The notes beneath the pieces were generated by a model. The model ran no database searches. It saw only the letters and a program-made list of their open reading frames with translations, and was not told the origin of the DNA. Both the position numbers and the translations under genes were made by a program. A stretch of DNA of 62,254 bases, filler included, from Globobulimina sp. (lineage: Eukaryota): the NCBI GenBank assembly GCA_003354225.1. It is 18 parts of 18 records of this genome, joined end to end, with 100 filler letters (N's around TTAATTAATTAA, not from the genome) between each part and the next. Parts side by side here need not be neighbours in the genome. Positions count along the whole stretch, not along the records: positions 6,936 to 10,302 come from PIVH01002966.1; positions 10,403 to 13,768 come from PIVH01002967.1; positions 13,869 to 17,234 come from PIVH01002968.1; positions 17,335 to 20,699 come from PIVH01002969.1; positions 20,800 to 24,164 come from PIVH01002970.1; positions 24,265 to 27,629 come from PIVH01002971.1; positions 27,730 to 31,094 come from PIVH01002972.1; positions 31,195 to 34,558 come from PIVH01002973.1; 10 more parts are not named here. One strand, given 5' to 3'. Positions 6,936 through 62,254 of the stretch are shown here, piece by piece (the first letter of the stretch is position 1; every line of letters begins with the position of its first letter).

Positions 6936-9900
6936 TACCATTTAAAAATTGTGAATTGGTGATGATTAAACTAACGCCGGTCGCAGTGGCTGCAATGTCA
7001 TAATCATAGCCTATATCTGTATTATTATTAAATATCGTAGATTCAATAATTACTTTATTATCATCATCATTGACATAGATTAATTGATCATAGCCTCTGT
7101 TGTGGACAAATGCGGAGTCTCCAATATATAATTCAACACCAGACATATCAATAAAAATTAAATTATTTTCTACACCTGATCCAATTTCTGCATTGCCAAT
7201 AAATGTGCTATTTGTTATGGATACGTTTGCATAATTACGTATGTTAAACAATTGTCTGTTTTCTTGTGTGTTGTGTTTAAATGTACATTCATCAAATAAC
7301 ACATCGGCTGCATCGATATAAAACATGGCTTGGTTTGTTGTGAATGATGGAGATGTGCCCAAAGTAAGTGCATTACCCTCAAATGTACAATTTGTAAATC
7401 TTGCATTGACACCATTTGATATTTCATACATAACATCGTTGTTTGTAAAATAACAATCTTCAAATATTATGGTCACTCGATCGTCATCAAATAACCAAAA
7501 TGGTTGACCTTGTGCTGTTTGATAATTATTTCCATCAAATTTAACATTTTTTACAATTAATGTTCCACCGTTGGACACTGTTTTTCGTAATGTGTACAAT
7601 GATACGCACATAAAAAAACGTAACAAAAAAAGATATTTAACTTTCAAACTGCCGATCAATTTTACTCGTTCGGTTTGAAGCAATTGTTAAATCTTGAATT
7701 TTTAACCAGCATTTAGGCCATCTATAATAAACAACAACATACAATATAAATATACAAAAAAGCAGTCTAGACGTACCTGCATTTAATCCACGTAGACTCA
7801 GAACTATCCGAATATTGCCATATAGTCTCAACACCAACACCAGATACGATAATATTATTATCATCAAAATTTAAATGATAGGGGAAATCCCATAAACCCT
7901 CTCCCATATTAAATTCACCATTGGCATCATATTTATCACATCGTGTGGCAGGAAAACCAGATATTTCGCCTAAAAAACATGGCCAGCCATACTGCACAGT
8001 CTGGCAAGTTGGCTGATACGTAGGCGAATTGGTGGGTGGTTGGGTGGGTGCCATCGACGGAGCGTTTGTTGGTGGCTGAGAAGGTGCTCTCGACGGTGGT
8101 GTAGTAGGCGCATTGCTGGGCGCAACCGAAGGAGCTAGAGATGGGGCATTGGAAGGTGGTGAGGTGGGCGCATTGCTGGGAGCATTGGTGGGTGGCTGTG
8201 TAGGCGCAGTGGATGGTGCTATACTGGGTGGAGATGATGGTGCGGCACTAGGCGGCTGTGTAGGTGCATGACTAGGTGCGAAAGTCGGTGGTTGTGTGGG
8301 TGCATTGGAAGGATCCGGTGTGGGTATTTCTGTTGGAAAAGAGGTAGGATCTAAAGTTGGTTCTGTTGTAGGCTCTACTGTAGGATCATTAGTGGGGTGA
8401 TAGGTTGGTATTTGTGTAGGGTTAGTGGTCGGATTGTGTGTAGGATATATGGTAGGGAAAAACGTCGGATTTGAGGTGGGATTATGTGAGGGGTTATAGG
8501 TTGGTTCAATAGTGGGGTGTATGGTGGGTGTTGTGGTTGGGATATCGCTTGGTTGCATTGTAGGGTTTGTTGTAGGATGATTAGTCGGATTGGTGGGATT
8601 TACAGTGGGATTATGTGTAGGCTGTATACTCGGACTAATGGTTGGATTTATTGTTTGTGCGCTAGGATTATTGGTGGGGTTAACGGTGGGTTCAAGGGTG
8701 GGTTCATTGGTGGGAATAAAGGTAGGTTCCAAGGTAGGTTCTAAGGTAGGTTCTAAGGTAGGATCGTTGCTGGGTTCATTCGTTTGTAATAAATTACGTC
8801 TCCGCATAGAGGTTGGTGCATCTGTTTGACAGCAATGGTCATAGGCAGCACCAAGTTGTGCTATTTGATTGATGCATGCATCTGCATAATCTGTCGATGA
8901 CGCCTGGCAATCTGTATATATTATTTATTTATTGTTGTTTGGGTGTATATTGTTTCTGGAAACATCCCAAAGTGTATATACCTGCATAATCACATCCACT
9001 CTTGCGGACATATACAAATTTCAGGGTTAATGTAGGTGCATTTGTGGGCGCACCAGGTTTATATGACGGTGCAATGCTGGGTGCAACGGTTGGTGCAGTA
9101 GTTGGTGAATATGATGGATTTAAACTAGGACTGACACTCGGATTTAAACTTGGCGCTAATGACGGTGCTTGGGAAGGAGCTGTGGTGGGTGCTGTGCTGG
9201 GTGCATTGCTAGGAGGCATTGTGGGATTATGTGTGGGATCGACTGTAGGTATTTGTGTGGGATCACTGGTTGGTTGGAATGTAGGTGTAGTGGTTGGATT
9301 ATCCGTGGGTTCAGGTGTAGCTATTGCATCACATTGTATCTCTAGATCACCAATAAGATGTCGTTCTTTATTGTCATTCATCTTAGATCGAAACTTAACG
9401 AAAAAGTCAACGCCTCCATCTTTTATACCGATAGCTATGTCGGGCTTGTTCTTGTACTCCCAGTCATATAAACTATCACATCTTGACTCACCTATCCCAG
9501 AAATACTATCTTTAAATGTATCGTCGTCAACTTCAATATCCCACAAATCGTTTGTAGTAGCAGCCATACCGTCCGATCTAATTAGTACACCATCGACATA
9601 TAAGTATAATTTGTCAGTTCCCTCTCCTTCGTCACAATATGCTAATAAATATGAGATATACACATTGGATGTTTCAGCACATTGAAAATATCGTATCATC
9701 TGATTATATTGTCCATCTCCACTACCTTCCTTTTTAAACCAGCCATGATATTTATAGGGATTACCTTGAACAGTCGGGTTGCCTAAATCTAAATTTCCAT
9801 CTTTCTCATTATATAAATACCAACCATCTCTGTAATTTGTTGACTGCGAATAATCATCAGTCCATACTCCATCTATTACGGTTGTTGCTGATTGTATTAA

Positions 9901-9969
9901 ATTTGGTAATACAAAGTATAGTAATAATCGATGCATATGATATTTCACTTTGTGATTTCGAAATAACAA
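6936..9969 (-). CDS. Secreted Pro/Thr/Ser-repeat (PT-repeat) protein with C-terminal right-handed beta-helix (pectin-lyase-like) repeats; multi-exon
   Basis: Signal-like MHRLLLYFVLPNLIQS, two long PTxxPT/APS blocks, and repeats of type xFxNCxFxxN. ORFs 8929-9969, 7767-8807 and 6936-7683 are separated by short AT-rich introns. Confidence 0.8.
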
Positions 9970-10402
9970 TAAATATTTTGAATAAGAATAAAACTACAAT
10001 AAGAGGAATAACGTTATTTGAAAAATGTCGACAAGAAATGTCTCTTTGCTGTTGCTTGATACCGGTTGTTTGTCACGTTGACATGCTGTTCAGTAGGTTG
10101 CTAACATTTTTTTTGAAAATATTATTTTTAACAAGACACTTTCAAATTTAATTAATCGTCATAACAAACAAAGTTCTAATAAAACGCGTTTAAAGCAAAA
10201 GCTATTAAATAATTGGACAAAAAGCATCAAGAATGTCAAATAACTCCATAGAATTTTCTTTTATTTTGATCATTTTTTTATTAACAAAATTAATGAGATC
10301 CANNNNNNNNNNNNNNNNNNNNNNNNNNNNNNNNNNNNNNNNNNNNTTAATTAATTAANNNNNNNNNNNNNNNNNNNNNNNNNNNNNNNNNNNNNNNNNN
10401 NN

Positions 10403-10521
10403 AATTATAATTTGATGATTAGGAAATTGTAAATAATTCTAACTTAATTTAATAACTTAAATTGTTGTAGCTAGCTAGCAGCAGCAGGCAGGCCAGCAGC
10501 TTGCGCTATTTTTGTTTTTTT
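10403..10521 (+). repeat. 119-bp exact terminal direct repeat of contig 4 (left copy)
   Basis: Identical to 13650-13768. Confidence 0.97.
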
Positions 10522-11008
10522 ATTTAAATATTATAAGATTTCAGATTTGAGGAAAATAGATAGAAAAATATAAATCGCATAAACCAACTTTTAATAAAGA
10601 ATAAATAAATAAAATAACCAAATCAATCCATAAAATGACGTTGTCGAGACAGCCTCAGCCGAATTAGGGAACCGGTCAGGCACTGAGTTATAAAGAGACG
10701 AATAGGCATGACCCCAATTTCGACTCTAGTTACTGTCAGTATGCCGAGCAACGTGTATTTTGGTCAACGACGGTTGATATTTGAACCAAAACACCTATCC
10801 GTAATTAATATCCATTAGTATAACCATTTTATAATGAAAATTAAGCATGCTGCATTTAATTGATTTCTTAAAGTTTTGAAGAAAAAAGTGTTAATTAGAA
10901 GGTTTTGTCTGACTAAAAAAAAGCAAGATTTTTATGTTTGATCTTAAAAAAAAAAAAATTATTCTAGAACATTAATAAGATACATTTAAATACAAGTCAT
11001 AATATGAA

Positions 11009-11029
11009 TATCCGTTACGCCACAGAGAT
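11009..11029 (-). pseudogene. Truncated 5' fragment of a tRNA-Arg gene
   Basis: Minus strand ATCTCTGTGGCGTAACGGATA closely matches the 5' end of the intact tRNA-Arg at 54585-54658 (GTCTCTGTGGCGTAATCGGATA). The similarity then stops abruptly. Confidence 0.6.
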
Positions 11030-11061
11030 ACATGTGTATATAAAAAGAAAAAAAAATAATA

Positions 11062-11084
11062 TGCCTTCACCCGGGATCGAACCG

Positions 11085-11118
<34 letters not shown>

Positions 11119-11134
11119 GCTGAGCTATAAAGGC
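11062..11134 (-). tRNA. tRNA-Phe (GAA)
   Basis: GCCTTTATAGCTCAGCTGGGAGAGCGTCAGACTGAAGATCTGAAGGTCCCCGGTTCGATCCCGGGTGAAGGCA: canonical 73-nt cloverleaf followed by a T-run Pol III terminator. Confidence 0.97.
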
Positions 11135-11214
11135 ATCGTCGTCGTTAAAAAAAATATCGCATACCGCCAGCCAGTCACAACCAAAACGAAAAAAACAACA
11201 AATATGTGGACTTT

Positions 11215-12051
11215 GAACCCAGATTCGTGTCTCTTTTAGCTTGCTTATATTGGATGGTTTGCTTTGTTTCGGTACCGGTGTCAGTTTGGATTGTTTTGGA
11301 ATGACATTGTCGGGTTTATTAGTGGTCAAACGCTGCGACTTTGCATCTACGATTTCATCGTGTTTCGAACTGAAACCATTGTAACGTATCTTCAGTTTGC
11401 CATTATCCAACACAGCGACAACGTGACACGCCCTCCATTTCTTGGTTGGCGATTTAATGAACAGTTGCTTTGGATATATAGCGTCGACGTCTTCTGACGG
11501 CATTGCAATGGATAAGCCTAAGCCTGCATAATTTTCATTCTTTTCATTGTTTTCGTTGTTTTTGTAGTCTTGTTCTGGTTGACAGTCCATTATGCTCTGC
11601 ATTTCATTAATGTTTAGTACGTAGATATTATAGGTATCGGTCATCCAATTTTTGTGTCTGAGTGGGTGCGAATGGCGGTCGTCATTGTTATTTGCGTCTT
11701 TTTTATAATATTGCTGCGATTCATGGATCAATTGGAGCACATATTGGATGTGTTGATGTTTCAGATCGAGAGTGTCTTTATAGCAATGGAGCATTTCTTG
11801 GTAGTCCTGTTTTGTCCACTTGTTGATGGTGCAGCCACTCAAACAATGTCCATAAAAGATGTCAGCCATTTGTTGCGCCAAAGACAGCTCAGATTCGAAT
11901 TGGTGCATTATTTCTAGTTCTAGCGATGTTTGTGCCTGTTTGGAGATATTTAGTTTGTGATATGGCAAATGTTTTATCCAATATGATAGTTTAGATGCCG
12001 TGTTCAAATGCAATAAATTAATGGGGGCGTTGGACTTTGACTTGGCTGACA
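11215..12051 (-). CDS. Hypothetical protein with Tudor-knot/chromo-barrel-like domain; 3' end uncertain
   Basis: Likely start MSAKSKS at 12051. WRACHVVAVLDNGKLKIRYNGFSSKHDEIV fits a chromo-barrel pattern. The ORF read-through into tRNA-Phe is probably not real. Confidence 0.6.
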
Positions 12052-12098
12052 TTATAATTATAAATTTAACAGTTGACTGAACTGAAGTCTGAAGTGAA

Positions 12099-13628
12099 GT
12101 GAAAAGTTTCCAGAAAACACAAACAATGACGTATTCCAGTTCGCGCGCACCTTTGTTGTTGCTGGAAGATTCCGGATCGAAACGCCGCAAAGACTTTGAC
12201 AGTCTGGATGGAGGGGCATGCCATATGGACAAATCCGCGGTGAAATCATGCGCCAACAAACGTTACCATTCGACGTTTTCAAATGAAACAGAAACCGATT
12301 CCGCTAAATTGAATGATAAACCGTTTAAATGCGACGCACTGTTCATGTTCCTCTTATTCTCATTGGCCATGGGCGCATTCATCATAGTTTTGCCATTCTT
12401 GATTTATTTCGATATGTTTGACATTCTCTTCATCAGCATCTCATACTTATTATTGTCCGTCTCTTTGGGCGTCGCCTTGGTGTCGAGCTCAATATGGCGC
12501 ATTCTGCAGTATTGCCCATTGAATTGCTGCCTGGAATGCATCAAAGAAACGCACGCCTTCAACATATTTTGTATTGTTCTCGGACTCTGTTTGATGGCAT
12601 TGGCTGTCATCGGTTTGCTGGACGAATTTAGCGATTCCTATAAGGAACATGACCATATCCGCTATCCATTGTGGTTGGACTTGTCTTTATTTGTTGTGTC
12701 CATCGCCTGCTTCATGTTCGTGTCGTGGGTCAATACGCAATACGCTCGAATGCAAAAAGAAAAAAGAATATTTTTACAAAATTATTATTACAACAAAATG
12801 ATAGCGGACGAAGGCGCTGCAAACGATTACAAACAAAACGAGGACAAAATCCCGACATATATTCAGAAAAATGGACCGTTGCATCCTTACGATCGATCTA
12901 TTTTTTCTTTCATATTTCACACATTTACGCATTTCCATTTGTTCGATGTAATCCGATTGGGATCAAAGAAAACACTGCAAACCTTCGACTGTTATTTCCC
13001 GCCCAAACCAGACGACATTGAGTATAATTTCGATAAATGGCGGCAACTGCATAGGAAACAGCAGAAAGAGAAAGGAAAAGGAAAAATCGGCACTTTCTCG
13101 TTGCTGTGGGCCATCGAATCCAAATCATTCATGCTGTTATGTGTCATATCGTTGGTGTCCACCTTGCCCGGTTTGGTAGTTCCAACCATCATTGGTAAAT
13201 TAGCAAATTTCTATGAAGATTTAAGCGTCGATTTGTATGTTGGCATCACACTGACTGTCGGTTTATTAGTTATCGGCGTTATTCGTATCTTTTTTGGAGC
13301 AATGTTAATGACATTCGCGTCTTGCGTAGCGGGCCGAGTCAATGGCTTATTGTCCTATGTCATATATCACAAAGCAATAAATATGTCCATTTCTAACGAT
13401 TCCACCGCAGAATTGTGCACTGGACAGAAAGTGACATTGCTGGCGGCCGACACAAGAATGATTGCCTACGCCTTGGCGTATCAGCCCATCTTTGTGGCGC
13501 AGTACATTATGATGGCGGCAGTCATTATTTTGTTACATGTCGAGCTGGGCATCTCTGCCTTGGCCGGCTGGCTCTTTGTCATTGTAATCTCCTTTCCGGT
13601 GCAGTCTGTATATGGTTATAATTTATAA
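12099..13628 (+). CDS. ABCC/MRP-type ABC transporter, N-terminal part only (TMD0, L0 lasso, start of TMD1)
   Basis: About 5 TM helices, then L0-like SIFSFIFHTFTHF..VIRLGSKKTLQ..D, then IYHKAINMS..TGQKVTLLAADT..ELGISALAG. No nucleotide-binding domain in the contig. Confidence 0.85.
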   Translation: MKSFQKTQTMTYSSSRAPLLLLEDSGSKRRKDFDSLDGGACHMDKSAVKSCANKRYHSTFSNETETDSAKLNDKPFKCDALFMFLLFSLAMGAFIIVLPFLIYFDMFDILFISISYLLLSVSLGVALVSSSIWRILQYCPLNCCLECIKETHAFNIFCIVLGLCLMALAVIGLLDEFSDSYKEHDHIRYPLWLDLSLFVVSIACFMFVSWVNTQYARMQKEKRIFLQNYYYNKMIADEGAANDYKQNEDKIPTYIQKNGPLHPYDRSIFSFIFHTFTHFHLFDVIRLGSKKTLQTFDCYFPPKPDDIEYNFDKWRQLHRKQQKEKGKGKIGTFSLLWAIESKSFMLLCVISLVSTLPGLVVPTIIGKLANFYEDLSVDLYVGITLTVGLLVIGVIRIFFGAMLMTFASCVAGRVNGLLSYVIYHKAINMSISNDSTAELCTGQKVTLLAADTRMIAYALAYQPIFVAQYIMMAAVIILLHVELGISALAGWLFVIVISFPVQSVYGYNL

Positions 13629-13649
13629 TGACATGTACAAACAAAAGGG

Positions 13650-13768
13650 AATTATAATTTGATGATTAGGAAATTGTAAATAATTCTAACTTAATTTAAT
13701 AACTTAAATTGTTGTAGCTAGCTAGCAGCAGCAGGCAGGCCAGCAGCTTGCGCTATTTTTGTTTTTTT
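13650..13768 (+). repeat. 119-bp exact terminal direct repeat of contig 4 (right copy)
   Basis: Identical to 10403-10521. Confidence 0.97.
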
Positions 13769-13868: not shown

Positions 13869-14794
13869 TTTTCGGGATTTCGGTTATTCATTGGAACCTC
13901 ATACCTATTTACGGTCACATTCTTTGTAAACCAGTGGAATGATGGAATAGTGGAATGTTGGAATTCTGGGTATGAAAAGCGACAAAAGGCCTATTAAAAA
14001 AGATGTTGCACATACATTTTTTTTGATAATCATTACAGCTCTTGTTGATAAAAGATTAAGATTCATCTTTTTCCTTTGTGTCTGGCTTAGTGGCTGAACC
14101 TTTATTATTGAAATATGCAAAACTATTAAAAGGATATAACATTAATTTAAATGGAGAAACCTTAAAAACAAAGGAAGAGCATTCAAAACTTGGTTGGTAT
14201 TATTTTGCAAATGCTGATAATGAGAGTCATCAAATTGGTGATATTCGAGTCAGATTTTGGATCATTACCAAACCATTATCATTGACAGTTATTGGTACAC
14301 AAAATGGTGATGCGATTAATATAAATTATAATAATCAAAATAACAATGTATGTGTGAGAAGTATTGGGAGATACAAATTGGACAATGTATTGAAAAGAGT
14401 ATGTCACGTAAACTTAATAAATAATGAAACCGGATCTATATTCGTAATGACAAATGTTGCATTGTGTTTGTGTATTTATTCCATCGAATTGTTGAAACCT
14501 ATAATTTTGGTCAAAAATGATGATCTAAATAATATGGAATGTGACAAAAAAAAGATTCGTACAAATGAAGTTGGTTTAAGAGCATTGGTTGGAAGTGTTT
14601 CAATTTGTGTACCAGTTTATTGTCTGAGTATCATGCAGCCACATATTGAAACATTCTATGCTAAGCGCCATGGACTAATGAAGTCAATTGGAATTTTAGC
14701 AGTGGTCTCCATTATCTTGGGCAGTACTCAAGTAACTCAACGCCTTGCACAAAACTCGGAAATTCAGACAAAAAAAAATTGTGAAAAAATTTAG
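13869..14794 (+). CDS. TMEM43-like membrane protein, 3' half
   Basis: YYF....SHQIGDIRVRF....LTVIGTQNG resembles TMEM43 PEVGDLRVSF..VTVIARQRG, followed by TM helices. Splicing near 13970-14060 is unresolved. Confidence 0.75.
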
Positions 14795-14982
14795 TTTGAC
14801 AGCAAAGAAAGAATAAAAGTGTCCATATAAAATGTTGAAATCAACAAAGAAAATCAATTGACAATTTTTGATCCAATACACTTTTTGATCCATCATCAAG
14901 ATTTGTATCTCAATTCTCTTATATTTTATATTTGAAATGACTTTTTCCATTCCAATGTGTCGTTAACTATTTGTTTGAACAT

Positions 14983-15741
14983 TTATAATATTAAACAATC
15001 TTTGATCTTCCTTTTCTTTTTTTGCGGCTTAAGAACACATCTGATGGCTTCATCAAATGTTTCTGTTAATCCATGTTGAGTCAATGCGGAACATTCGACA
15101 AAGCCATTAGCTTTGACTTGTTTTGCTAATTTTTGTCCTTGTTGAGCGGATATTAATTGCGCTTTATTTAAGCCAGTTTCTTTTAAATCACATTTTGTCG
15201 CAACAATAATAAACGGTACCTTTGGACAATGATGTTTTATTTCCGGTATCCATTTCAGTTTTACATTCTCAAATGAAGAGCGCAAATCACATGCATAACA
15301 AACTAAAAATACATCAGTTTGTGGATATGATAACGGTCTGAGTTTGTATTTTGTATTTACATTTGTGACTGTTTTGTATTTATATATTTTATTAATTAGA
15401 TACCTTAATCGATCATAATCTTCCTGACCTGCCGTATCCCAAAGCATTACGTTTACGAATTTACCATCAACCAACACATTTGTTTGATAGTTATCAAACA
15501 CTATTGTTTTTTTTGTTTTTTGTTTCTCAAATTATATATAATGAGAGGCAAATTGTAGAATGATAAACCTGTTGGAATATGTTCATGAGGGAAGGCATTC
15601 TGTGAATATGAAACCAATAAACATGTTTTACCTAAATGACAAATCAAAAACATATGTAATTTGTCAACAGCAAAGTACATCATTTGCGAACATTATACCT
15701 ACTGCTCCATCACCAACCGTTACTATTTTAACACCTAACAT
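14983..15741 (-). CDS. Rho/Rac-family small GTPase, 4 exons
   Basis: [57 protein letters not shown], then a polybasic tail and CaaX CLIL. Confidence 0.95.
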
Positions 15742-15992
15742 TATTTCTTCGATAAAGTATTATTAAATTTTGATGCGGCAATTAAATATTCTTTTAAAAA
15801 CTTTCCAGTTAAAAAAACTAATAATAATGGCAACGCCTCTTGTTTAGACGTACAGCCTCGTTACAAACTAATATAAACAAACAATGCAAACAACAATGAA
15901 ATTGATTCTTTTTATAATTTCATCGTGCTATGCGTTGATTCTTTTTATAATTTTAAGATTAATCTTTTCGTTCGCAAACTTAATTTAACAAA

Positions 15993-16616
15993 ATGGGCCT
16001 GGGCTGCAGCATAGACATTTGCAGTGACGAGGATCATGAATATTCAGCGAGATCAAGACAAATGCGTGATGTAGACATTGAAGATTTAGCTAAATCTGAT
16101 TTTGTTGAAGTTTCTAAATCAGATGAATATGCTGCAGCTGATAATGATGAACGAATACCATACGCAACAACTGAGGATTTAACAAATATACCAACGAAAA
16201 ATGATAATAAAATAGGAACGCCTTTAATTGCTATTTCTGAGGATATATCAGTTAATAATTATAATAATACACAGCAACAACAATTAAAAACATCAGCAGA
16301 TGCACGGCAACTTCAAGCGTTAAGAAAGAAATATAGTTCACGTAAAGTAATATTGCCAGAAAAGGATAAATCAAAAACTCCACAATGTGTTGATTGTGGT
16401 GGTTTTTATCACATTCAAGCGGACCCTTTGACCGCCTACGAAGGTGTTGGTATTGTTTGTGCCCAATGTGGGAAAAATAGAAATGATAATCCTGAATTAT
16501 TGTTGGAAGATCATTATTATAAATGCGAACAATGTGAAAACGTTGATGTTTGCTCTAAATGTTATCAACACGAAAAAGGAAAGTTGCTTAATTTAAATTC
16601 ATCCACTGTCATATGA
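15993..16616 (+). CDS. Predicted N-acylated (MGLGCS) protein with C-terminal Cys-rich ZZ-like zinc finger
   Basis: N-terminal MGxGCS; CxxC..CxxC..YYKCEQC...DVCSKC. Confidence 0.7.
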   Translation: MGLGCSIDICSDEDHEYSARSRQMRDVDIEDLAKSDFVEVSKSDEYAAADNDERIPYATTEDLTNIPTKNDNKIGTPLIAISEDISVNNYNNTQQQQLKTSADARQLQALRKKYSSRKVILPEKDKSKTPQCVDCGGFYHIQADPLTAYEGVGIVCAQCGKNRNDNPELLLEDHYYKCEQCENVDVCSKCYQHEKGKLLNLNSSTVI

Positions 16617-16767
16617 ATGTGTTTTGTGTTTTTGCTCAAATCCGCAGAAACAATAAAAAACTAATTGGAAATGAACATGTGTGTTTGCTCTGTGTGATTG
16701 TTAAACAAATCCGCTGATTAGGACAGAATCCAGTTTTCGAATTCCAAAATCACTTTAAATCATCAAA

Positions 16768-17234
16768 TTGCGGAATGCAGACAAGCAACTCCAACACGGA
16801 TTTATCATTTCGACTCCGTCAACGTTTCGTATATGTTGCATTCTTTTATTGGTAGGAATATGTTATAGATTACGTACAGTTGGAGCAGCGACATTGGCTG
16901 GAACAATTGGCATATGTTTCGCGTATACATCAATGAATCTGTTCAGGTCAAACCAAAGAAATTATCTTCGAAACTTCAAGAAATTTCTAAATGCAAAATA
17001 CAACGTTAAGTATATCACAGTACACTAATATGTATATATCACATTATGCACAAACAGTGTCGCATTGTATCACAACCGTCACCGACAAATGAAAACAAAT
17101 TAATTTATATCTCCGATGATATAAAACCAAATGATAATATATCCGATGATATATTTGAATTTAATGATACATGTCCCAGTCAAGCAATTTATTTATATCG
17201 TGACTGTGAAATGTATCAATGGAAAGAAAACAGA
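16768..17234 (+). CDS. TMEM43-like membrane protein, 5' half (two exons, runs off contig end)
   Basis: PTNENKLIYISDDI...AIYLYRDCEMYQWKE resembles TMEM43 ENEGRLVHI...AVKLRRHVEMYQWVE. Confidence 0.75.
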
Positions 17235-22220: not shown

Positions 22221-22873
22221 GACTTTCCAATTTTGTTTTTTAGTAACGTTTAAAAACTTTTTACTAAAACCACACTTAAAGAACATCTTGCAACGCTCTA
22301 GTTTAAAGCCGTACTGACGTAGTTTAAAAATGCAACAAAGATTTCCAAAGTCCGATCGTTAAAGCTGTTTTTAATGATGTCATTAAGATAACCCCCCCCT
22401 CCTCTGTATACATTTGGTTCAATTATAAATTTGTTCTGGATTTGCAAAGCGTTTCTCAGATAATTGAACAACTTATCGACCAGTGGGGGGGGGTTATCTT
22501 TTGGAATATATCGTTCAGTTAGACTCTGTCGAATAATGGCTTTTTTTAAAAGAACACAATCAGAGAAAAAAACGAAGAGTCGAGGAAGAATCCGATTAAG
22601 AGCACATACTTCCGCCCATTCATCCGAACAATACATAAATACAAATATACGCAGTAGATCACAACGACCATATGCGGGGCCACACCAACTGCTCAAACAA
22701 GAAATAAATTAAGATTTGGCAAAAAGAAAAGAGCAAATTCAGTTGGCAGAAAAAATAAAAATCGACAATCTGAGCTAAAAGTAAGCGAAGCCAGTATTGA
22801 TTCGCGATACTTATCAGACCAAGACGTAAAAATTACATTTACACTGCAAAATATACAAAACACCATCAACGAA

Positions 22874-24164
22874 TTGGATGAAACTCACAAATCCTTAAAA
22901 ACTGAGATACAGAATAAATTCGAAGATATTATGATTAGAATTAAACAGCAACAATTAAATAAAGAGGCCGATTTAAATGATATGGTTATAAAAAAAAAGA
23001 ATATTTTACAGTCGCAACTTGATGAATTGAATAAATATCAACAAAACTTGAAAATAATTGGCGAAAATTTCTCCAAAAACGAGAATAAAGAGGTTGTCCT
23101 AGGATTTCTTAATCAAAATAACAATCAGAAATATAATGCACAGTCAATACAATGTGCAGTTTCTAGCAATATTCTCGTTAATTTTGCAGAAGAAGCCTTA
23201 AATAAATGTTATAAATGCATATCAGCATTGGGTTCGATTGAAAGTGGCGAGGTGCCATTATTTGCGCCAATTATTAAAATTAGGAATAAGACTACAAATA
23301 GCATTCAAGTCAAATGTTTTGAGCCGAAAAATATGGACAATGAAATATTAGCGATCACACAATTTGAAGTTGAATATATTTTATTACCCAAACAATGGAA
23401 AGGACGTTGGAAAAAAATGAAAAAAAACATATTTGAGATAATTAATGATGAGAATAATTTTAACAATGATGACCAGAAAGAGTCAAAGGACGATAATAAA
23501 ACATCAAAATGTATCGTTATTGACAGAAATAAGAATTTTAAGAAGAATATTGTATTAATTAACGATTTAGAATTTGATTGTGATTATTTAATTCGTTGCC
23601 GTTGTTATAATATCTGTGGGTTTGGCCCATGGAATTTACCAAAACTTATCTCAATTTATGATATAAATACAGATGGACATTGGCAATTTAATTGGGAGTA
23701 TTTTACGGATAATTTGACAGTTTCTGACAACGATAAAACAATCACAAAAACCAATGGTAAAAATGAATGGGATTCGTTGGCGAAAGGACCGTGTTTTCCA
23801 ATTAATGTTAAGTAACAAATCAATAATTAATATAAAATATAAAAAACAAAAAGTGTACAGTTTATAGAATCGCAAATGAAAATATATTGGAATGTAATGA
23901 TAAATAATTGCTATGCGGCAGATACCGGTTCGTTGCAATTCGGTATAATGCATAAAAAAATCAAGCCTGAAGATGTTTGGAGTGAAAGTATTGGATTTGC
24001 TGAATACGATTCGATGGGAATGGAAAAATATGAACAAAGTCCAGGATTTAAGAATGGATCAATTGTAAAAATTGTTGTTGATTTTGGAGAGTTAACAGTT
24101 GAATTTTATGAAAACGATACTTTTTGTGCTATGCAGAAATTGGATGTTTTGAAACAAAAAATAT
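22874..24164 (+). CDS. Coiled-coil + FN3 + SPRY (TRIM/FSD1-like) protein; 5' end unclear
   Basis: Coiled coil, FN3 LEFDCDYLIRCRCYNICGFGPW, SPRY-like FKNGSIVKIVVDFGELTVEFYEND. Intron ~23807-23867. Confidence 0.7.
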
Positions 24165-27628: not shown

Positions 27629-27729
27629 TNNNNNNNNNNNNNNNNNNNNNNNNNNNNNNNNNNNNNNNNNNNNTTAATTAATTAANNNNNNNNNNNNNNN
27701 NNNNNNNNNNNNNNNNNNNNNNNNNNNNN

Positions 27730-27865
27730 TCCGGAAAGAAAAACAGGTCGTAGAGACAAAACCTCAGGGTCGGTTTGTCTGAGTGCAGTAATTTCTGCAA
27801 GTGTATCATCTACCAGTTCGACAGCCTGGCCAACATATCGTTCAGGGTGATCCAGAGACTGTAAA
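27730..27865 (-). other. Probable 3' end of a different gene (adenylosuccinate-lyase-superfamily-like C-terminus) joined in frame to the sulfatase
   Basis: Abrupt rise in GC. LDHPERYVGQAVELVD resembles the L.P..Y.G.A...V C-terminal motif of the purB/ADSL superfamily. Confidence 0.5.
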
Positions 27866-30826
27866 TCATCATCATTGTGCACGTTATAATTATTTACAGT
27901 GTTTGGTGGATACCATTTATTTAAATATAATGCAGTTAATTCAATCGAGTCAATATTTAACATTTCAAATCCTTTTTTAATTCGAGCAAAATATTGAGTC
28001 TCAGATAAAAACGGTGTAATAAATGATCCGCTGTCATCACCATTTTTATCTGGATCACCGATCGGCAATCTATCCCATAGAAAATGTATTGGTTCGTGGT
28101 ACAATTTATTATCAGTAACACCCTCAAATAAATGCATTGCATATTTAACAATTTCATCAGATTCATTAGCATTAAATAATAAATTATTCTCTTCTGATAT
28201 ATCATTGGTTAAATCAAATAAATACTTATCATCAACAGCTTGTGACAAAGGTATGTTCTGCGCATAAGTTATAACATCATGGCCATCACACCAACCATCA
28301 ACATTATTATATTGCCATTGATCAATCGAGCTATCCTCAGCAAAATATTTATATAAATTACTATTATTTGGATATGTAAAAACAACTGATGCCGATTGTA
28401 ATGATTGCAAACCAACATTCAATATGATATTATCTCTTTTGTTATATGCATCTCCATGCATTATCATTTCATACTGATTTATGCCATCCCATGTTTGATG
28501 AGTATCATTTATGTCATTTAAAATGCCAGCAAATGACAATAATGTCGGTGTCCAATCTAATGAACTAAACAATGAATCTCTTTTTGTTCCTTTTATACTT
28601 TCCGGAATCACACCGCCTGAAATCAATGCAAAAGTTCGCGTATTACCATCAAACAAAGTGCCTTTCGTCCCTCGTAACGGATAATTACATCCTCCCTTTT
28701 CTATATCCCCTCCATTATCAGTCGAAAATATTACTAATGTATTTGCCCATAAATCAGCATTCTCTTTGAATTTATTCATTATATCACCAATAATTTCGTC
28801 TGTATATAATATATTTGTGCAATATTTTATCCTCTGCTCCATGCTCAGTGTACTCTGTTTCCCCAAAGCTGCTATTTCTTTGCATCTCTGCTCGTACGCA
28901 TTGATATGAATCAATGGAACATGCATTGTTTGCAATGCTAAATACATATAAAATGGGTCAATATTATCATCAATATTGGCATCATCAATATACTCAAATA
29001 TTTTATCTCGGAATAAATCCATAGTATTAAAAGAAGTTTGTGTCGAATTTATAAAACATTCTTCTTCATCTTGAAAGAAATCATAATGCGAAGTATCGCC
29101 AAATTCGATATCTTTATATTTCAATGTATCATAACCGATCGCGCCTTGATAAAAACCATAAAAGTGATCAAAGCCACGGTTTGTGGGAGTAAACGCATCG
29201 ACGGCATAGCCCATATGCCATTTGCCCACAGCGAAAGTTTTATAGCCACCAACTGACTGTAGCCAATTTGCAATGGTTGGCTGCCCAACCGGAATGCCAC
29301 CAATTTCTGTGTAATCCCAAGGCAACATTTTGCCAAACCCCATATTGTGCGCATAGCGGCCGGTGATAAATTGTGATCGCGATGGACTGCACATTAAATG
29401 CGAATAATGCCTCTCCAAACTTATCGACTCTGCGTATAAATTGTCAATATTTGGTGTGGGATATTGTCCGCCATTAAAACTCACGTCGTTCCATCCAACG
29501 TCATCCATTAAAATAAATACAATGTTAATATTACTATCATCACTAGTTTTTGTTGCTGGTTCTGATGCTGTGTCAAACCACTTATTATCACGAATCAGCT
29601 CAGCTGGACAGGACTGTGATACTAAGGATTCGTCATAAAATGTACCAATGTCATATACAACTCCCCAATCAGCAAAATCCCACAACATTCTGGGTGTGAT
29701 ATCAATTTTGGATGCAAGCGACCATGCTCTTGTGGATAAAAAATCAAATCCATACTTATCATCTAATTCAATAATGCCGCATTCATCGTATCCCGTAGCA
29801 CAGGCTGCAGTGTATACATTTGGATATTCCCCGATTGCATCTGATGATATAATACTATATCCATTGCAAGTTGCCCATAATGCACGTAAATACGCTGTGA
29901 ATGAATGTAAAAGCATAAAGATGGGATCATCGGGAGAGTAACCAGTCGCCATCGCACATTCTGCACATGATCTGGCAAACAACCAATGAACCTGTTGATG
30001 TTGCTCAACAATCCCACCTTTAAAGGTTAAGAAATCGGCGCGTTGTAACACTTCGCCAATTTCTGGTGCGGTTGACAATACTATTTGTGAATCGAGCGGA
30101 TGGTCAACACTTAAGCTTCGTTTTAAACAACAACCATTTTCAACATTCTCTGTGTCAGCACAAAGTACTTCATCCTTTATTGGCCAATTTTCAACGCTCC
30201 ACAAAGCAGTATCCAAACAATAATTATTTTCCGGGTTACCGTCGCCACCAAATACTGTATTCAATACAAATGGAGATGACTCGAAACCGGCATCAACGGA
30301 CCAATCATAATATGGTAAAGCAAAACATTTAAATTTGCCACCTATGGCTCGTATTTGACTGTATGTTATGTGATATATTTAATGGAAGTAATATATTTGC
30401 CACATATGGCTCGTTAATTGTATACTAACAAAAGACTGTTAATTAATAGGTCAGATATTTCAAATCTGTTGCTCAGAATCCTCAGATGGAAACGTTAAAA
30501 TGTCAGAGCTTCCGTTACATACAAAATCAGAACCATAATTATATATTACTTAACGTTTCAACCTCCCAAACTAAATACGTGTGCCAGAAAAAAAATGATG
30601 AACCACGATGTATCATCGTATGTGCTGCATGATCGTCGAGAATAACTTGATATTTACCATTTTTCCGAATTCTTTGCAATCCTTCGACGTATAACATTAA
30701 TTCTGCTGTTGATAACTGATGAATTGGTCGTCGAATACGATTACATTCCTCTTCTAAATATATGCCATGGCCAGAGCCAGCAATTAACTTTATTAATATT
30801 GCGGATATTAATAATAAACCAACCAT
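27860..30826 (-). CDS. Secreted tyrosinase-domain + arylsulfatase fusion protein; intron 30359-30554
   Basis: Signal peptide; CuA H..H....FFFWH, LPYYDW, CuB HQQVH...SPDDPIFMLLHS. Then NIVFILMDDVGWNDV, CSPSR, GKWHMG, RGFDHFYG, STDNGG, NYPLRGTKG in one frame. Confidence 0.9.
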
Positions 30827-48097: not shown

Positions 48098-48693
48098 ATA
48101 GTTGTAATATAATATTTTTCTTTTTTTGTAATATTAAGTATAATTAAATTTAATATTCTCTTCAAACAAAACTTGTCAAAACGAGTCTTATAATTAAATG
48201 GTCACAAACGATCCCTGTCTTTTTGGAGTTAAAGATAAAATGGCAAAATTTCTCACTCTAGTTGAAAAAAATTTTACCAATTTTCTATTTGTTATCATAT
48301 CTTTCTTATCTGTAACTTTTATTGTGAGGGGGAGTCTGTACTCTTTTAAGGTTGAAAACCATTCACTTCATTATGCAGTGACTTTGGCTATCTTAGGGGC
48401 AATCTATGTNNNNNNNNNNNNNNNNNNNNNNNNNNNNNNNNNNNNNNNNNNNNTTAATTAATTAANNNNNNNNNNNNNNNNNNNNNNNNNNNNNNNNNNN
48501 NNNNNNNNNGTCAAAACGAAGAATTGAAGTCTTTCCTTTTAGAACCTATCTGATTAACACAATACACACACAATACAACAACACAAAAGTCTAGAAAAAT
48601 GACGAAAGAGTCAGTGTGGTCATCCCTACAATAGAAATCGCAAGAATACTAAAATTAATACAAGATACAATCAAGATAGAAGTCATTGACTAT

Positions 48694-54658: not shown

Positions 54659-55053
54659 ATACATTCTTACTTTATCGTACCTTTCTTGCTTTAAAAACAC
54701 GCAGCCATACATGTATTTAAACTACATTTATAAACAAAATTACATTCATGGGACAAATAACCAATGATTGTACTCAATATTTGTTTATTTTGATGTTTAA
54801 TACTTATTTCTTTTGATTGTTATGTTATGGTGTGACAGTATCGTACGATTCACCTATTTCCATGACCAGTTTGATGTTAGTAATGTCAATATAGGTGTTA
54901 TTACTGACATGATAAAAGAAGAGTGGTAACACGGGCTGAAACAGTAAAAAAAAACAATCAAAAAAAAACAAAAAAAAAAATTCCAGCTTTCCCATCCTTC
55001 CAATCACTTTTCTTTTTTCAAATTTATTACATTCCTTTTACTGAGTTATAAAA

Positions 55054-55333
55054 ATGAGAGAAGTTATTTCATTGCATGTTGGCCAGGCAGGCATTCAGGT
55101 CGGTAACGCGTGCTGGGAATTATATTGCTTAGAGCACGGTATTCAGCCCGATGGCCAAATGCCATCTGATAAGACCGTGGGAGGCGGAGATGACGCATTT
55201 TCTACTTTTTTCAGCGAGACCGGCGCAGGCAAACATGTGCCACGATGTATATTTTTAGATTTAGAGCCAACAATTATCGACGAAGTACGTACTGGAACCT
55301 ATCGACAATTATTCCATCGGCAACAGTTAATAT
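55054..55333 (+). CDS. TUBA: Alpha-tubulin, 5' part
   Basis: [39 protein letters not shown]...[17 protein letters not shown]. Confidence 0.98.
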
Positions 55334-58894: not shown

Positions 58895-60124
58895 TAGGAT
58901 TTTATTTTGAATTCAAATCTGTGGGTCCTATTGCCTTATTTGCAATAAATGACATTACGGGACTAATTACAGCATTCAACTTATTATATTTATATAAAAA
59001 ATTCCCAACCGTTCAAAATCGTGGTTGGGACATCATAAAGCAAAGCACTGTAAGAATGGAATCAACGCACGCCTTATTAGTGGATGAAAAGGAAACCTCA
59101 AATATTAAACTCATGGAAGATGTTCATTTTAATCGCATTACCATTCAAGTTTATTTTTACATCGTCGCAACAATCCCATTCGGTGTGAGCTGTGTATGTC
59201 ATTTGGGTGTTATGTATCCATTGCACGCAGTTTGGATATTCCCTGCTATGAATCTCGTCATTGCGTCTGCCTATTTATTATTCATCCAAATGTTAATAAT
59301 GTCCTGCGACGGAGGCAAAAACGTTCGACAATATTTAAGCGAAAAACCAGATGAATGTGCATGGAAAAGTTTAAATTCTCTTTGTAACTGTTGTTTGAGA
59401 GCAAACGCAGAAAAAGGTGTTTCTTGCCGAGCTAAACTATGCTTGCTCATACTGGTTAAACCAATAATTAATTATATGACTGCCTATTTTCTATATTTTC
59501 ATCCTGAATCATTCGAACGGACCGCCGGTTACTTTGTGTTAAAAGTGTTAACTGTTTGTACCACAACAATACCTATTAAAGCAATGGAATCGTTACATTT
59601 GCAGTTATTGCCATACACAAGAATGAGGAGATCGACTGCTAAACGCAACATTGTCTGTTTTTTATCCCCAATTTGCCAATTACAGGTTAAGTTGCTTTAA
59701 TTTGCGTATACAAAAAACAACAATGTCTTAATTAAAGGAGGTGGCAGTGGCGTTTTTATTTAGTTTGAGTGTGATGGATGGAGTCAATATTGATGATATT
59801 GAAAGGGGCTATCGGTGGACGATTGGATTTGGTTTGTTGTTGGCAACAGAAATGTTAATCTGTTCGATTTTGATTGTTTGCTTTGCTTTTCGTCCGCAAG
59901 ATTTGCGTTTGTGGCAATATCATGAAACGTTGCTCAAGAAACATAAATCGAGATTAATATTGGATTACAACACTCTTCAGCCTGCAGTCCCAGATAAAAT
60001 GGACGCTTTGGAGGAGAATTCCATTGAAATGAGTTCTAGATCGGATATGCTTGATTTTGATAATGATATAAACGACAAAATAGACTCAATTCAAGAGAAA
60101 ACAGATGCGGTGGATGCTAAATAA
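58895..60124 (+). CDS. Organic solute transporter alpha / TMEM184-like membrane protein, multi-exon
   Basis: Multi-TM; LLILVKPII, and LLATEMLICSIL...FAF resembling the OST-alpha IC.EM...A.....AF motif. Confidence 0.65.
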
Positions 60125-60193
60125 CGACTTGTATACGACCAGACAAATTTACTTACTTACTTACTATTTTTACTTTTTATATTCTAAAGTTTT

Positions 60194-61980
60194 ATGATGT
60201 CAACCTGTCTTCGAGTTCAATCAGACATTAAATTTTCATCATTCCTCCATAACAATTACAGTTCATTGCTAAATGATACCACTATATCAGACGTTCAATT
60301 TGAAATAATAACTGGTACGCGAGAAGATGAAGAGAGTCATATTTATTATGGTTGTCGCGCATTATTTGCTATCCACAGTGACGTATTTCGTAATATGTTG
60401 TATGGCTCGATGATGGAGGCGGATTGTACAAATGTTGTACGATTAAACGACATCTCGTGTCAAACCTTTGAATTTATTCAACAATGTTTTTATGGATTAA
60501 ATCCCATATTGAATGCAAGTAATGTTGTACCGATATTATGTGCGTCTGATAAATATTTAATTAAACCGCTCAAACATTTATGCATTCATTTTATATTAAA
60601 CTTAGCCACGAAAAATGATGCACATAATACGTTACATAATACCGCTGAATTGACAAACATTGAAAACGAGTCTGCTATTTCCATCTTTCTATCTTCCTTA
60701 AATTTATTATATTATTCACAACAACTTGATGTGATAAATAGTATAATTTCATCCATTTCTAAATCGCATAGCCATTCTACAAAAATATGGAATACCATTA
60801 TTTATGATAAAAACTGGCTAATTTTGCATCATTCTTTGATTAAACTAATTTTATTGCATTTGATTAAATTGAATAACACCTTAAAAAATAAGAATGAAGG
60901 CATTCAAATCCCGTCCTCGAAATTATGGCTACAATGTAAAAAATGGTGCATTTTTCAGACCAATTTAATCAACAACAACTCGGAAAGTATAATAAATGTA
61001 CAGCAAGTTTGTAATTTCCAAGCAAAAGTTTTTCAGTCAAAGCTCAGATCATGTCATCCAAAGCTTAAATGTTGACTCTCTTGCTTGCAAATTACACACT
61101 TTTTGAATTGTGTGCATAAAAAAAGGAAAAGAAAGAAAACAATGACATCGATGAAACTAAGGATGATGAAAAAACCAGCAATGAATCAGAGGATAACAAA
61201 AATAATCTGAATAACTTGAATAATAAAATGAAATGGTATAATTTAATGAAAAAATATTTTAAAACGGATAATGTAATAACAAGCATTTTATATGAAGTAA
61301 ATCCATATTTTTTTATGAAAAATAAATCGGAAATAAACAAAATATTAAATATAATGGAATTAAATAAGATTTATGAACATTTTCTATATAAAAAAACCAA
61401 ACAAAATAGCAATGAATCCTCATTAAATGTGAGTGGTATGGACGATGCGAATGAATTGAAATTGTGCAGTGACAATGTCTTATATTTATATGATGATTTT
61501 CGCAGAATAACGAGGTCGAATTATGGAGACACAGAATTTATTCGTTGTGCGTCAGATACCGGTTGGAATAGTAATATTCATCAATTTACAGTGAAATGTT
61601 ATATCACAGGGAATCAAGCGTCCATTGGCATTGTAACTAATCCAAAATCTTTTATCGATCCACAGTCGGCCTTTCCATTCGATATCAATGAGGTCGGTAT
61701 TTCATACTATTGGTACGGCTCAAATGTATATGGATATCGATATGGACAACAACAGTTTAATAATAACATTGGCTATGAATGGCAAAATGGTGACATTATA
61801 TCCATTATTATTAATTGTAACAAGTGGACCATACAATTTATGAAAAATTATGAAAAAATTGGCAAAATTATCAAAATTATACCGGATCAGTATTATTATG
61901 TGGCTTTGTGCGATGGAATATATTCGGAAGAGATCTATTATGAAGGTTTAATTGATTATAAAGTGCTTGTTTGCCAATAA
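60194..61980 (+). CDS. BTB/POZ + SPRY-like protein, intron ~61008-61125
   Basis: LLNDTTISDVQFEI..RALFAIHSDVFRNMLYGSMME..ASDKYLIKPLKHLC; SPRY-like WQNGDIISIIINCNKWTIQFMKN..YYVAL. Confidence 0.85.
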
Positions 61981-62254
61981 CGTTTTTTTGTTTCTTACTG
62001 TTAATGGCGGCATCTTAAAGTATATTTGCTTGTATTTAGATCTAAATATACGTTAATTACATTACAACCAAATATACTTTATCTGCAGCAACAAGCATGC
62101 CACTAATCACATCTGTATCTAATTTACCATCATAGTCAACATACAAAGTTGTTAATTTATTATATTTTCCTATGTTACGTTGATATATTTTATATATTTC
62201 ATTGTTATTATTGTTTGCCAACAATAAACTGAATTTCTTTCCAGAATCTATTTT

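What the first reader, a model, noticed from the sequence alone, without database searches (positions are those of the whole stretch)
6936..62254. Many ~3.3-kb gene-bearing eukaryotic contigs are circularly permuted: possible extrachromosomal circles or tandem amplicons
Seen: contig 4 has an exact 119-bp terminal repeat. In contigs 3, 5, 7, 9 and 18, joining the last base to the first base continues a reading frame or intron with no gap and no overlap. Contigs 10 and 15 give weaker support. Several units also carry an internal break where a gene is cut (ABCC, sulfatase, tRNA-Arg), as expected if a chromosomal piece was excised and closed. Inference: a population of gene-bearing DNA circles or head-to-tail amplicons in a probable foraminiferan, a group known for life-cycle genome amplification and DNA elimination. 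Ligation, rolling-circle/MDA amplification or pre-selection of circular contigs could give the same picture and cannot be excluded from sequence alone.
Basis: partly seen in the sequence, partly recalled or inferred. Interest (0 to 1): 0.9.

Follow-up and report, generated by a model that had tools for sequence, protein, structure and literature searches.

The report
Mostly ordinary contigs, one assembly loop
The window is eighteen unrelated, length-sorted assembly fragments of a foraminifer-like protist; only one closes on itself and one more shows a head-to-tail gene arrangement, so the proposed population of gene-carrying DNA circles is not supported.

Summary
The window is 18 separate contigs (3368 to 3360 bp, sorted by length) glued with N44-TTAATTAATTAA-N44 spacers. 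The shared ~3.3 kb size therefore comes from how the window was built.

Contig 4 has an exact 119-bp prefix = suffix. It is the only one of 18 with any end/start similarity.

Contig 5 carries the 5' exons of a TMEM43-like gene at its end and the 3' part at its start, on the same strand. About 57 codons are missing, so the join has a gap and is not seamless.

Homologues refute the seamless joins in contigs 3 and 7. Contig 9 holds one tyrosinase-sulfatase fusion gene, read from its start codon to the contig edge, not a cut sulfatase. Contig 18 offers nothing to test. All four tRNAs are whole.

Open frames across self-joins are no longer than across 306 cross-joins (p = 0.25; the five claimed contigs, p = 0.60).

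Most likely contigs 4 and 5 are head-to-tail segmental duplications with truncated gene copies. A circle is not excluded for contig 4. My read-laying run did not test loop closure.

The parts
10303..10402 (.). Example of the synthetic spacer (N44 + TTAATTAATTAA + N44) that separates each of the 18 contigs. There are 17 such spacers in the window.
10403..13768 (+). Contig 4: closed loop in the assembly, with a unit of 3247 bp plus a 119-bp overlap
10403..10521 (+). Left copy of the exact 119-bp terminal repeat (R)
   Evidence: In run X1 a separate 116-nt contig covers 10403-10518 at depth 16.3.
13650..13768 (+). Right copy of the exact 119-bp terminal repeat (R)
10621..10838 (.). High-copy repeat inside the non-coding filler of contig 4. 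Summed contig depth is 737-1012 in X1, against 16.8 for the unique part, with many variants and indels.
   Evidence: tables 2-5
11061..11135 (-). Complete tRNA-Phe(GAA) gene. Other copies with different flanks exist in run X1.
   Evidence: loose ends
11190..12049 (-). ORF of 286 aa with no recognised family, divergent from the ABCC gene. Contigs of X2, X3 and X4 leave the window sequence at 11207 and continue with sequence absent from the window.
12126..13625 (+). N-terminal 500 aa of an ABCC-type transporter (aa 255-497 = ABCC4 residues 25-266). Contigs of X3 and X4 leave the window sequence at 13610 and continue in frame with sequence absent from the window.
13869..17234 (+). Contig 5: head-to-tail arrangement of one gene's halves around a Ras gene and a ZZ-like ORF
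14090..14791 (+). 3' part of the TMEM43-like gene (from about aa 175 of P0005 to the stop). It follows a pyrimidine-rich stretch ending in AG. It lacks 5 residues relative to P0005.
14986..15531 (-). Ras-family GTPase ORF
16775..17234 (+). 5' exons of the TMEM43-like gene (P0005 aa 1-117, with two introns of about 35 and 38 nt). The contig ends inside the third exon, whose 59 residues are 59/59 identical to P0005.
6937..9993 (-). Contig 3: long gene with PT repeats and a beta-helix-like repeat domain, running off the contig start. The proposed join is refuted.
22536..24164 (+). Contig 7: SPRY-containing gene whose last 14-19 codons lie beyond the contig end. The proposed join gives an unrelated 6-residue tail.
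27730..30826 (-). Contig 9: single tyrosinase-sulfatase fusion gene. Exon 1 is 30554-30826, followed by a ~193-nt intron; exon 2 is 27730-30360.
58895..62254 (+). Contig 18: one BTB + SPRY gene on the + strand, ending at a stop at 61977. No gene is cut at either end.

Best explanation
The window is an artificial concatenation of 18 unrelated contigs that were sorted by length. They come from a fragmented short-read assembly of a foraminifer-like eukaryote.

Sixteen of the 18 show no sign of circularity; for these, the 'seamless joins' are chance continuations of open frames in AT-rich sequence.

Contig 4 is a closed path in the assembly graph. Its overlap of 119 nt is a typical largest k-mer size (recalled, not from a call). 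Contig 5 is a broken version of the same kind of path.

Most likely both are local head-to-tail (tandem) segmental duplications of about 3.2-3.6 kb in nuclear DNA. The units carry truncated or partial gene copies: ABCC and its divergent neighbour in contig 4, and a TMEM43-like gene in contig 5. The assembler collapsed them onto themselves.

Shown: the overlap, the permuted gene halves, the missing 57 codons, the failed joins.

Inferred: tandem array rather than circle, and DNA-level break points at 11207 and 13610.
For: Window structure.

Only 1 of 18 contigs has any end/start similarity. If the other contigs were loops from the same assembly, they should carry the same overlap.

Self-joins versus 306 cross-joins: p = 0.25 for all 18 and p = 0.60 for the five claimed contigs.

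The longest self-join frame (contig 8, 391 nt, exceeded by 1.3% of controls) joins an ABCD Walker B motif to the upstream region of HMG-CoA lyase. It is plainly chance.

Contig 3: 9 homologues continue after the contig edge with a shared conserved block. The 32-residue post-join peptide scores like shuffled peptides (p 0.23-0.25; homologue-to-homologue median 43 against 15-28).

Contig 7: 4 of 4 homologues carry a conserved 14-19-residue tail. It is absent after the join and anywhere else in the window.

Contig 9: the fusion is also present in P0006 at 78% identity. Sulfatase homologues align from their residue ~18-23 onward.

Contig 5.

Contig 4. In run X1 the pieces are exact. The R piece (depth 16.3), the piece running from R into the flank (19.0) and the 2.4-kb unique piece (16.8) have similar depth, which fits one R per unit. 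In X3 and X4 the ABCC sequence departs at 13610. In X2, X3 and X4 the neighbouring gene departs at 11207. Both continue into sequence absent from the window, so the unit holds truncated copies.

A contig of X2 with 8 differences from the window continues past 13610 into R. The right-hand continuation therefore exists in at least two sequence variants.
Against: No call tested loop closure of contig 4 independently. I laid the unit without its second repeat copy. The 'goes back 3247' joint (X2, 103 nt on the shorter side; X1, 19 nt) therefore lies wholly inside the contig's own last 119 bases.

No flank linking a tandem array to unique chromosomal DNA was seen, and no single-copy depth baseline is available. 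The tool itself warns that contig depth is a poor measure.

The assembler and its k are not known to me. That 119 is a standard k value is recalled.

Runs X2-X4 are labelled kind '?'. I infer they are RNA because they cover only the two genes, leave the ~50-nt promoter gap empty, and X4 shows adapter letters at 12072. If so, 13610 could be an ordinary GT splice donor at 13608 plus a 3-nt coincidence, rather than a DNA break.

Contig 5 could equally be a partial upstream duplicate of the gene's 3' part on a linear chromosome, with no repeated unit at all.
Confidence: 0.6

Rival explanations
1. Contig 4, and perhaps contig 5, is a true extrachromosomal circular DNA. A ~2.4-kb chromosomal piece carrying the 5' halves of a divergent gene pair is closed through ~0.84 kb of repeat and tRNA-Phe sequence.
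For: Exact overlap with no entry or exit branch in the assembled contig. Both genes are truncated relative to the forms seen in X2-X4. R and the unique part have equal depth in X1.
Against: A simple excision-and-closure event would not leave 0.84 kb of filler containing a high-copy repeat and a tRNA gene between the two break points. A tandem array gives the same graph. Depth 16.8 shows no evident amplification, although there is no baseline. Only 1 of 18 contigs closes.
Confidence: 0.15
2. The loop in contig 4 is a library or assembly artefact. Candidates are a chimeric join from whole-genome amplification or ligation, or rolling-circle over-amplification of a small self-closed fragment.
For: The library protocol is unknown. 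Contig 14 begins with an 81-bp inverted repeat (1-81 against 300-220, 97.5%), a snap-back shape that amplification chimeras can give. Closure rests on this assembly alone.
Against: The join is direct, not inverted. The stretch from 13610 into R is also present in an X2 contig that differs from the window at 8 places, so that side is not a one-off. R, the flank and the unique part have similar depth in X1.
Confidence: 0.1
3. Contig 4 is not a loop at all. It is a linear segment flanked by two copies of a dispersed repeat, and the shared identical stretch happens to produce a 119-nt terminal overlap.
For: The 10403-10850 region belongs to a multi-copy family with indel variants (tables 4-5). X1's Logan contig 10403-10518 ends within 3 nt of both R boundaries, as a branching node would. 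An X2 contig arrives at 13628 from unrelated sequence (table 7).
Against: This needs the identical stretch to have one particular length (about a 1 in 100 coincidence, by my reasoning on de Bruijn graphs). The exact R piece has depth 16.3, not twice the 16.8 of the unique part.
Confidence: 0.1
4. One reading: many of these contigs (3, 5, 7, 9, 18 and others) are seamless circular permutations of gene-bearing circles or amplicons.
For: Open frames do run across several joins. Contig 5's gene halves are permuted.
Against: 0 of the 4 homology-tested claimed contigs is seamless. There is no terminal overlap in 17 of 18 contigs. Self-joins are no better than cross-joins. Contigs 8 and 16 end in different genes at their two ends.
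Confidence: 0.03

Closest known systems
Looped contigs of de Bruijn graph assemblers (terminal overlap equal to k), produced by circular molecules or by collapsed tandem repeats
   Same: Contig 4 has an exact direct terminal overlap of 119 nt and no other end/start similarity.
   Different: The assembler and its k are not known to me. The unit carries protein-coding gene fragments and a tRNA gene rather than a plasmid, a virus, an organelle genome or a satellite.
Tandem segmental duplications with partial gene copies in repeat-rich protist genomes
   Same: Head-to-tail order of one gene's halves (contig 5). Truncated ABCC and neighbouring gene in a self-closing unit (contig 4). Other repeats lie nearby: tandem repeats fill contig 11, and contig 1 holds a non-LTR retrotransposon.
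   Different: No read evidence for copy number or for chromosomal flanks. That foraminiferal genomes are rich in such duplications is my recollection. Two literature searches listed no paper on it by title or abstract, and none was opened.
Eukaryotic extrachromosomal circular DNA (eccDNA)
   Same: The size of 3.2 kb falls within the 0.15-100 kb range quoted in PMC11606643 (passages seen). The unit carries gene fragments.
   Different: Circular topology is not shown. There is 0.84 kb of repeat filler between the break points. In the passages I saw, that review mentions endoreplication and Zerfall in Foraminifera but no eccDNA in that group.
Chimeric joins from whole-genome amplification or ligation
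   Same: Could produce a self-closing path and truncated genes.
   Different: The join is direct, and one side of it recurs in a sequence variant in another run. The library type is unknown.

Membership tests
Assembly-graph loop (circle or collapsed tandem repeat) | Exact direct overlap between contig start and end, of k-mer length | tested here: met
   Contig 4: 119 nt at 100% identity. That 119 is a standard k is recalled. The other 17 contigs have no overlap of 8 nt or more and no blastn-short hit between their last and first 400 nt.
Assembly-graph loop (circle or collapsed tandem repeat) | An independent assembly or reads run left context -> R -> right context in one piece | tested here: inconclusive
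   No Logan contig bridges the whole of R. The reported 'goes back' joint lies inside the contig's own terminal 119 nt because I trimmed the second copy.
Seamless circular permutation (contigs 3, 5, 7, 9, 18) | The gene cut at one contig end continues at the other end as its homologues do | tested here: not met
   Contig 3. Contig 7. Contig 5: the halves are present but 57 codons are missing. Contig 9: the ORF stops one codon after the join, and the gene is otherwise contained in the contig. Contig 18: no cut gene, so not testable.
Extrachromosomal circular DNA | Junction-spanning reads in unamplified DNA, exonuclease V resistance, monomer-length long reads | not testable with these tools
   Only Logan contigs of four runs could be laid, once.
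Extrachromosomal circular DNA | The same junction recurs in independent samples | tested here: inconclusive
   X2 (same sample as X1) carries 13610 -> R with 8 differences. X3 (same sample as X1) and X4 (another study and organism label) leave the sequence at 13610 and do not show the junction.
Tandem segmental duplication | Head-to-tail order of parts of the same unit on one strand | tested here: met
   Contig 5: gene 5' part at contig positions 2907-3366, 3' part at 222-863, same strand.
Tandem segmental duplication | Copy number above flanks, and reads linking the array to unique flanks | not testable with these tools
   No whole assembly is held. Contig depth gives no baseline.
Amplification or ligation chimera | Junction confined to one amplified library | not testable with these tools
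   The library is 'not on record' for all four runs.

The most novel reading that the evidence does not exclude
Contig 4, and possibly the contig 5 unit, is a real small nuclear DNA circle or high-copy head-to-tail amplicon of a foraminiferan. It would be built from the promoter-proximal halves of a divergent gene pair joined through a tRNA-Phe-bearing repeat. The junction would be heritable, because a variant copy shares its right-hand continuation. This would be a first sequence-level example of the selective amplification or elimination long inferred from foraminiferal nuclear cycles.
Probability: 0.12. Interest if true: 0.65.

Novelty: new member of a known kind. Interest (0 to 1): 0.2.

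Why it matters
If small gene-bearing circles were common in a foraminiferan, that would link sequence data to the endoreplication and DNA-shedding cycles known from microscopy.

The evidence here reduces the claim to one self-closing 3.2-kb unit and one head-to-tail gene arrangement among 18 contigs. Collapsed tandem duplications explain both more simply.

The practical lesson concerns method. Contig size in these windows reflects length sorting. Open frames across a hypothetical join are not evidence: the best such frame, in contig 8, joins two unrelated genes.

Tried and rejected
1. The whole genome was not available, so I could not count looped contigs in the assembly.

Only one contig could be laid, and the cap is one call.

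3. I laid contig 4 without its second repeat copy. The 'goes back' joint is therefore uninformative about closure. Uncovered parts in X2-X4 are not used as evidence.

4. Pfam on the short end pieces of contig 5 gave nothing. Homologues were needed.

5. ORF-continuity statistics showed no signal.

6. ARAGORN on all 18 joins and on circularised contigs found no tRNA across a join.

7. Rfam in E-value mode on the filler of contig 4 and on the start of contig 7 found only the tRNA-Phe, plus a sub-threshold match on its opposite strand.

8. The Atlas search for the 286-aa ORF of contig 4 gave no usable hit.

9. An exact 40-mer from contig 4's right flank had 0 matches in metagenome contigs.

10. 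Earlier-findings look-ups returned nothing relevant.

11. Literature searches returned listings only. No listed title or abstract describes small gene-bearing circles in Foraminifera. One review was read in passages. Supplementary files were not consulted.

12. Weak minus-strand tblastn hits of the missing TMEM43 segment at the start of contig 5 (E 0.1-3) were judged to be chance.
Full report
WHAT THE WINDOW IS

The 62,254 bases are 18 stretches of 3368, 3367, 3367, 3366 ... 3360 bp in strictly descending order. Each is separated from the next by N44 + TTAATTAATTAA + N44. They are separate contigs of a fragmented assembly, concatenated by length. The '~3.3 kb' size shared by all 'units' therefore comes from how the window was built. 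It is not a property of the DNA. No whole assembly is held for this window.

ORGANISM

GC content is about 30-38% in 17 of the 18 contigs. Genes have short GT-AG introns: about 35 and 38 nt in contig 5 and about 193 nt in contig 9. The closest relatives of the proteins come mostly from protist transcriptome collections. The one named relative among the hits to contig 7 is from the foraminiferal genus Ammonia, at 51% identity. 'Probable foraminiferan or close relative' is reasonable but was not tested further.

TERMINAL OVERLAPS

Contig 4 (10403-13768) has an exact 119-nt prefix = suffix. The other 17 contigs have no exact overlap of 8 nt or more. They also have no blastn-short match between their last and first 400 nt. 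If contigs 3, 5, 7, 9 and 18 were closed paths from the same assembly, they should carry the same overlap. 'No gap and no overlap' is therefore unlikely on assembly logic alone. This last step is my reasoning, and that 119 is a common largest k is recalled.

OPEN FRAMES ACROSS THE JOINS

For every contig I joined end to start and measured the longest stop-free stretch on both sides of the join. I did the same for all 306 joins of one contig's end to another contig's start.

- Median for self-joins is 75 nt, for cross-joins 71 nt (Mann-Whitney p = 0.25).
- For the five claimed contigs the values are 95, 126, 40, 74 and 22 nt (p = 0.60).
- The fraction of controls doing at least as well is 0.29, 0.18, 0.83, 0.45 and 0.96.

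It joins an ABCD transporter cut right after its Walker B motif to the region upstream of an HMG-CoA lyase domain. The sequence after the join does not continue the ABC domain. Frame continuity across a join is therefore not evidence.

HOMOLOGY TESTS OF THE CLAIMED JOINS

Contig 5
- The closest relative, P0005, aligns with residues 1-16, 8-63 and 59-117 at contig positions 2907-2954, 2984-3151 and 3190-3366. The last exon matches 59/59.
- P0005 residues 175-245 align at positions 222-419, on the same strand.
- Three other homologues give the same picture; the fifth matches only the 3' part.
- The gene's 5' part is therefore at the contig end and its 3' part at the contig start.
- Residues 118-174 are found nowhere in the window. 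The contig ends inside an exon. The first 221 nt of the contig are non-coding and end in a pyrimidine tract plus AG.
- The 3' copy also lacks five residues and differs at a few others relative to P0005.
- This is a real head-to-tail arrangement with a gap, not a seamless join.

Contig 3
- The minus-strand ORF that runs off the contig start belongs to large repeat proteins (65 hits).
- In the nine of the 13 fetched homologues in which I could locate the edge motif, a conserved block follows that motif.
- The 32 residues read after the join score 15-28 against those continuations. Homologue-to-homologue scores have a median of 43.
- 23-25% of shuffled peptides or of other short ORF peptides do as well.
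- tblastn alignments stop at the join in 10 of 12 homologues. Two run 20-25 residues past it at about 32% identity in this repeat-rich family.
- The join is refuted.

Contig 7
- Four of four homologues (534-563 aa) align up to the last codon of the contig and then carry a conserved 14-19-residue tail.
- The join gives six unrelated residues and a stop.
- The tail is encoded nowhere in the window.
- The join is refuted.

Contig 9
- The 883-aa minus-strand ORF holds a tyrosinase domain followed by a complete sulfatase domain.
- P0006 has the same two domains in the same order at 78-88% identity. It also identifies an upstream first exon with the start codon.
- Stand-alone sulfatases align from their residue ~18-23 onward.
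- This is a natural fusion gene, not a break.
- The homologues' alignments end 144-237 nt before the contig edge. The frame stops one codon after the join, so the join carries no information.

Contig 18
- One BTB + SPRY gene ends at a stop at 61977, after what looks like a complete SPRY domain (my reading of the tail; Pfam matched profile positions 11-98 of 121).
- Its first ORF has a plausible start codon 54 codons in.
- No gene is cut at either end, so nothing can be tested. Only 22 nt are open before the join.

Controls
- Contig 16 ends in the N-terminus of a tubulin gene and starts with an unrelated ORF.
- All four tRNA genes are complete, and none spans a join. The 'cut tRNA-Arg' is not confirmed.

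CONTIG 4 IN DETAIL

The 3247-bp unit holds the following.
- About 0.84 kb of non-coding filler, comprising 13611-13768 (whose last 119 nt repeat 10403-10521) followed by 10522-11206.
- A complete tRNA-Phe gene at 11061-11135.
- A 286-aa ORF with no recognised family on the minus strand.
- On the plus strand, diverging from that ORF, the first 500 residues of an ABCC transporter. Its aa 255-497 match ABCC4 residues 25-266 of about 1330.

Five public runs from two studies hold the contig. I laid four of them on 10403-13649.

- Run X1 matches without a single difference over its long pieces.
  - The 2393-nt piece over 11268-13649 has depth 16.8.
  - The piece 10403-10518 has depth 16.3.
  - The piece 10502-10649 has depth 19.0.
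  - Summed depth is 737-1012 at 10621-10838 and 3641 over the tRNA, so these are multi-copy sequences.
- Runs X2, X3 and X4 cover essentially only the two genes. X4 shows adapter letters at 12072. I infer they are RNA; the tool gives their kind as '?'.
- In X3 and X4 the ABCC sequence leaves the window at 13610 and continues in frame.
- In X2, X3 and X4 the other gene leaves the window at 11207.
- Neither continuation occurs anywhere in the window.
- Next to 11207 the three runs share four substitutions and a 6-nt insertion relative to the window.
- An X2 contig with 8 differences runs on past 13610 into R.

The unit therefore contains truncated copies of both genes, and fuller versions are expressed.

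Whether 13610 and 11207 are DNA break points or splice sites is not settled. A GT lies at 13608, so a normal donor there needs only a 3-nt coincidence. At 11207 a canonical donor would need a 5-nt coincidence. This is my reading.

LIMIT OF THE READ TEST

I laid the unit without its second repeat copy. The reported joint 13649 -> 10403 (X2: 103 nt on the shorter side; X1: 19 nt) therefore lies inside the contig's own last 119 bases. No laid contig runs from left of R through R and beyond 10521. Loop closure rests on the window's assembly alone. The similar depth of R and the unique part fits one R per unit, as in a loop or array, better than two flanking copies. Contig depth is a weak measure, however.

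INTERPRETATION

The simplest account is this.
- Sixteen contigs show no sign of circularity.
- Contig 4 is a self-closing path.
- Contig 5 is a head-to-tail arrangement.
- Both come from local tandem segmental duplication with partial gene copies, in a repeat-rich genome. Contig 11 is made of tandem repeats and contig 1 holds a non-LTR retrotransposon.

A true circle for contig 4 remains possible, and I put it near 0.15. An amplification or ligation artefact and a linear repeat-flanked segment each remain near 0.1. A population of seamless gene-bearing circles is not supported.

LITERATURE

Searches gave listings only. No listed title or abstract describes small gene-bearing circles in Foraminifera. 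In PMC11606643 I saw passages on eccDNA in eukaryotes generally (0.15-100 kb) and on endoreplication and Zerfall in Foraminifera. Supplementary files were not consulted.

VERDICT

Interest is low.

Noticed in passing
window 491-3331 (-), contig 1: A 947-aa ORF with endonuclease/exonuclease/phosphatase and reverse transcriptase domains. It is an apparently intact non-LTR retrotransposon.
   Followed up: no
window 45048-48409, contig 14: GC content is 45-53%, against about 30-38% elsewhere. A glycoside hydrolase family 48 gene is split over two overlapping ORFs (profile positions 2-205 and 196-619), pointing to a frameshift or an intron. The contig starts with an 81-bp inverted repeat (contig positions 1-81 against 300-220, 97.5%). 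Possible explanations are a contaminant, a transferred gene or a chimeric end.
   Followed up: partly
window 34659-38021, contig 11: No ORF of 90 aa or more. The contig is made of diverged tandem repeats offset by about 200 nt, plus a 132-nt tandem duplication at its start (98% identity).
   Followed up: no
window 27730-30826 (-), contig 9: A tyrosinase domain and a complete sulfatase domain are fused in one gene. The same fusion occurs in a related protist protein at 78% identity. This enzyme pairing is unusual.
   Followed up: partly
window 6635-6706 (+), contig 2: A weak tRNA-like element (34.5 bits) with a two-base 'anticodon' call. A 71% similar copy lies at contig 2 positions 359-497.
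   Followed up: no
window 24265-27629 (-), contig 8: An HMG-CoA lyase gene is followed on the same strand by a peroxisomal-type ABCD half-transporter cut at its Walker B motif by the contig end. The frame stays open for 391 nt across the hypothetical join purely by chance.
   Followed up: yes
window 55045-55332 (+), contig 16: The N-terminal 96 residues of a tubulin (Pfam Tubulin profile positions 1-72) run off the contig end. This could be used to place the organism.
   Followed up: no
window 10621-10838 and 11061-11135, contig 4: In run X1 these stretches have summed contig depth 737-1012 and 3641, against 16.8 for neighbouring unique sequence. Many indel variants and other flanks are present. 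They are a high-copy repeat family and a multi-copy tRNA-Phe gene.
   Followed up: partly
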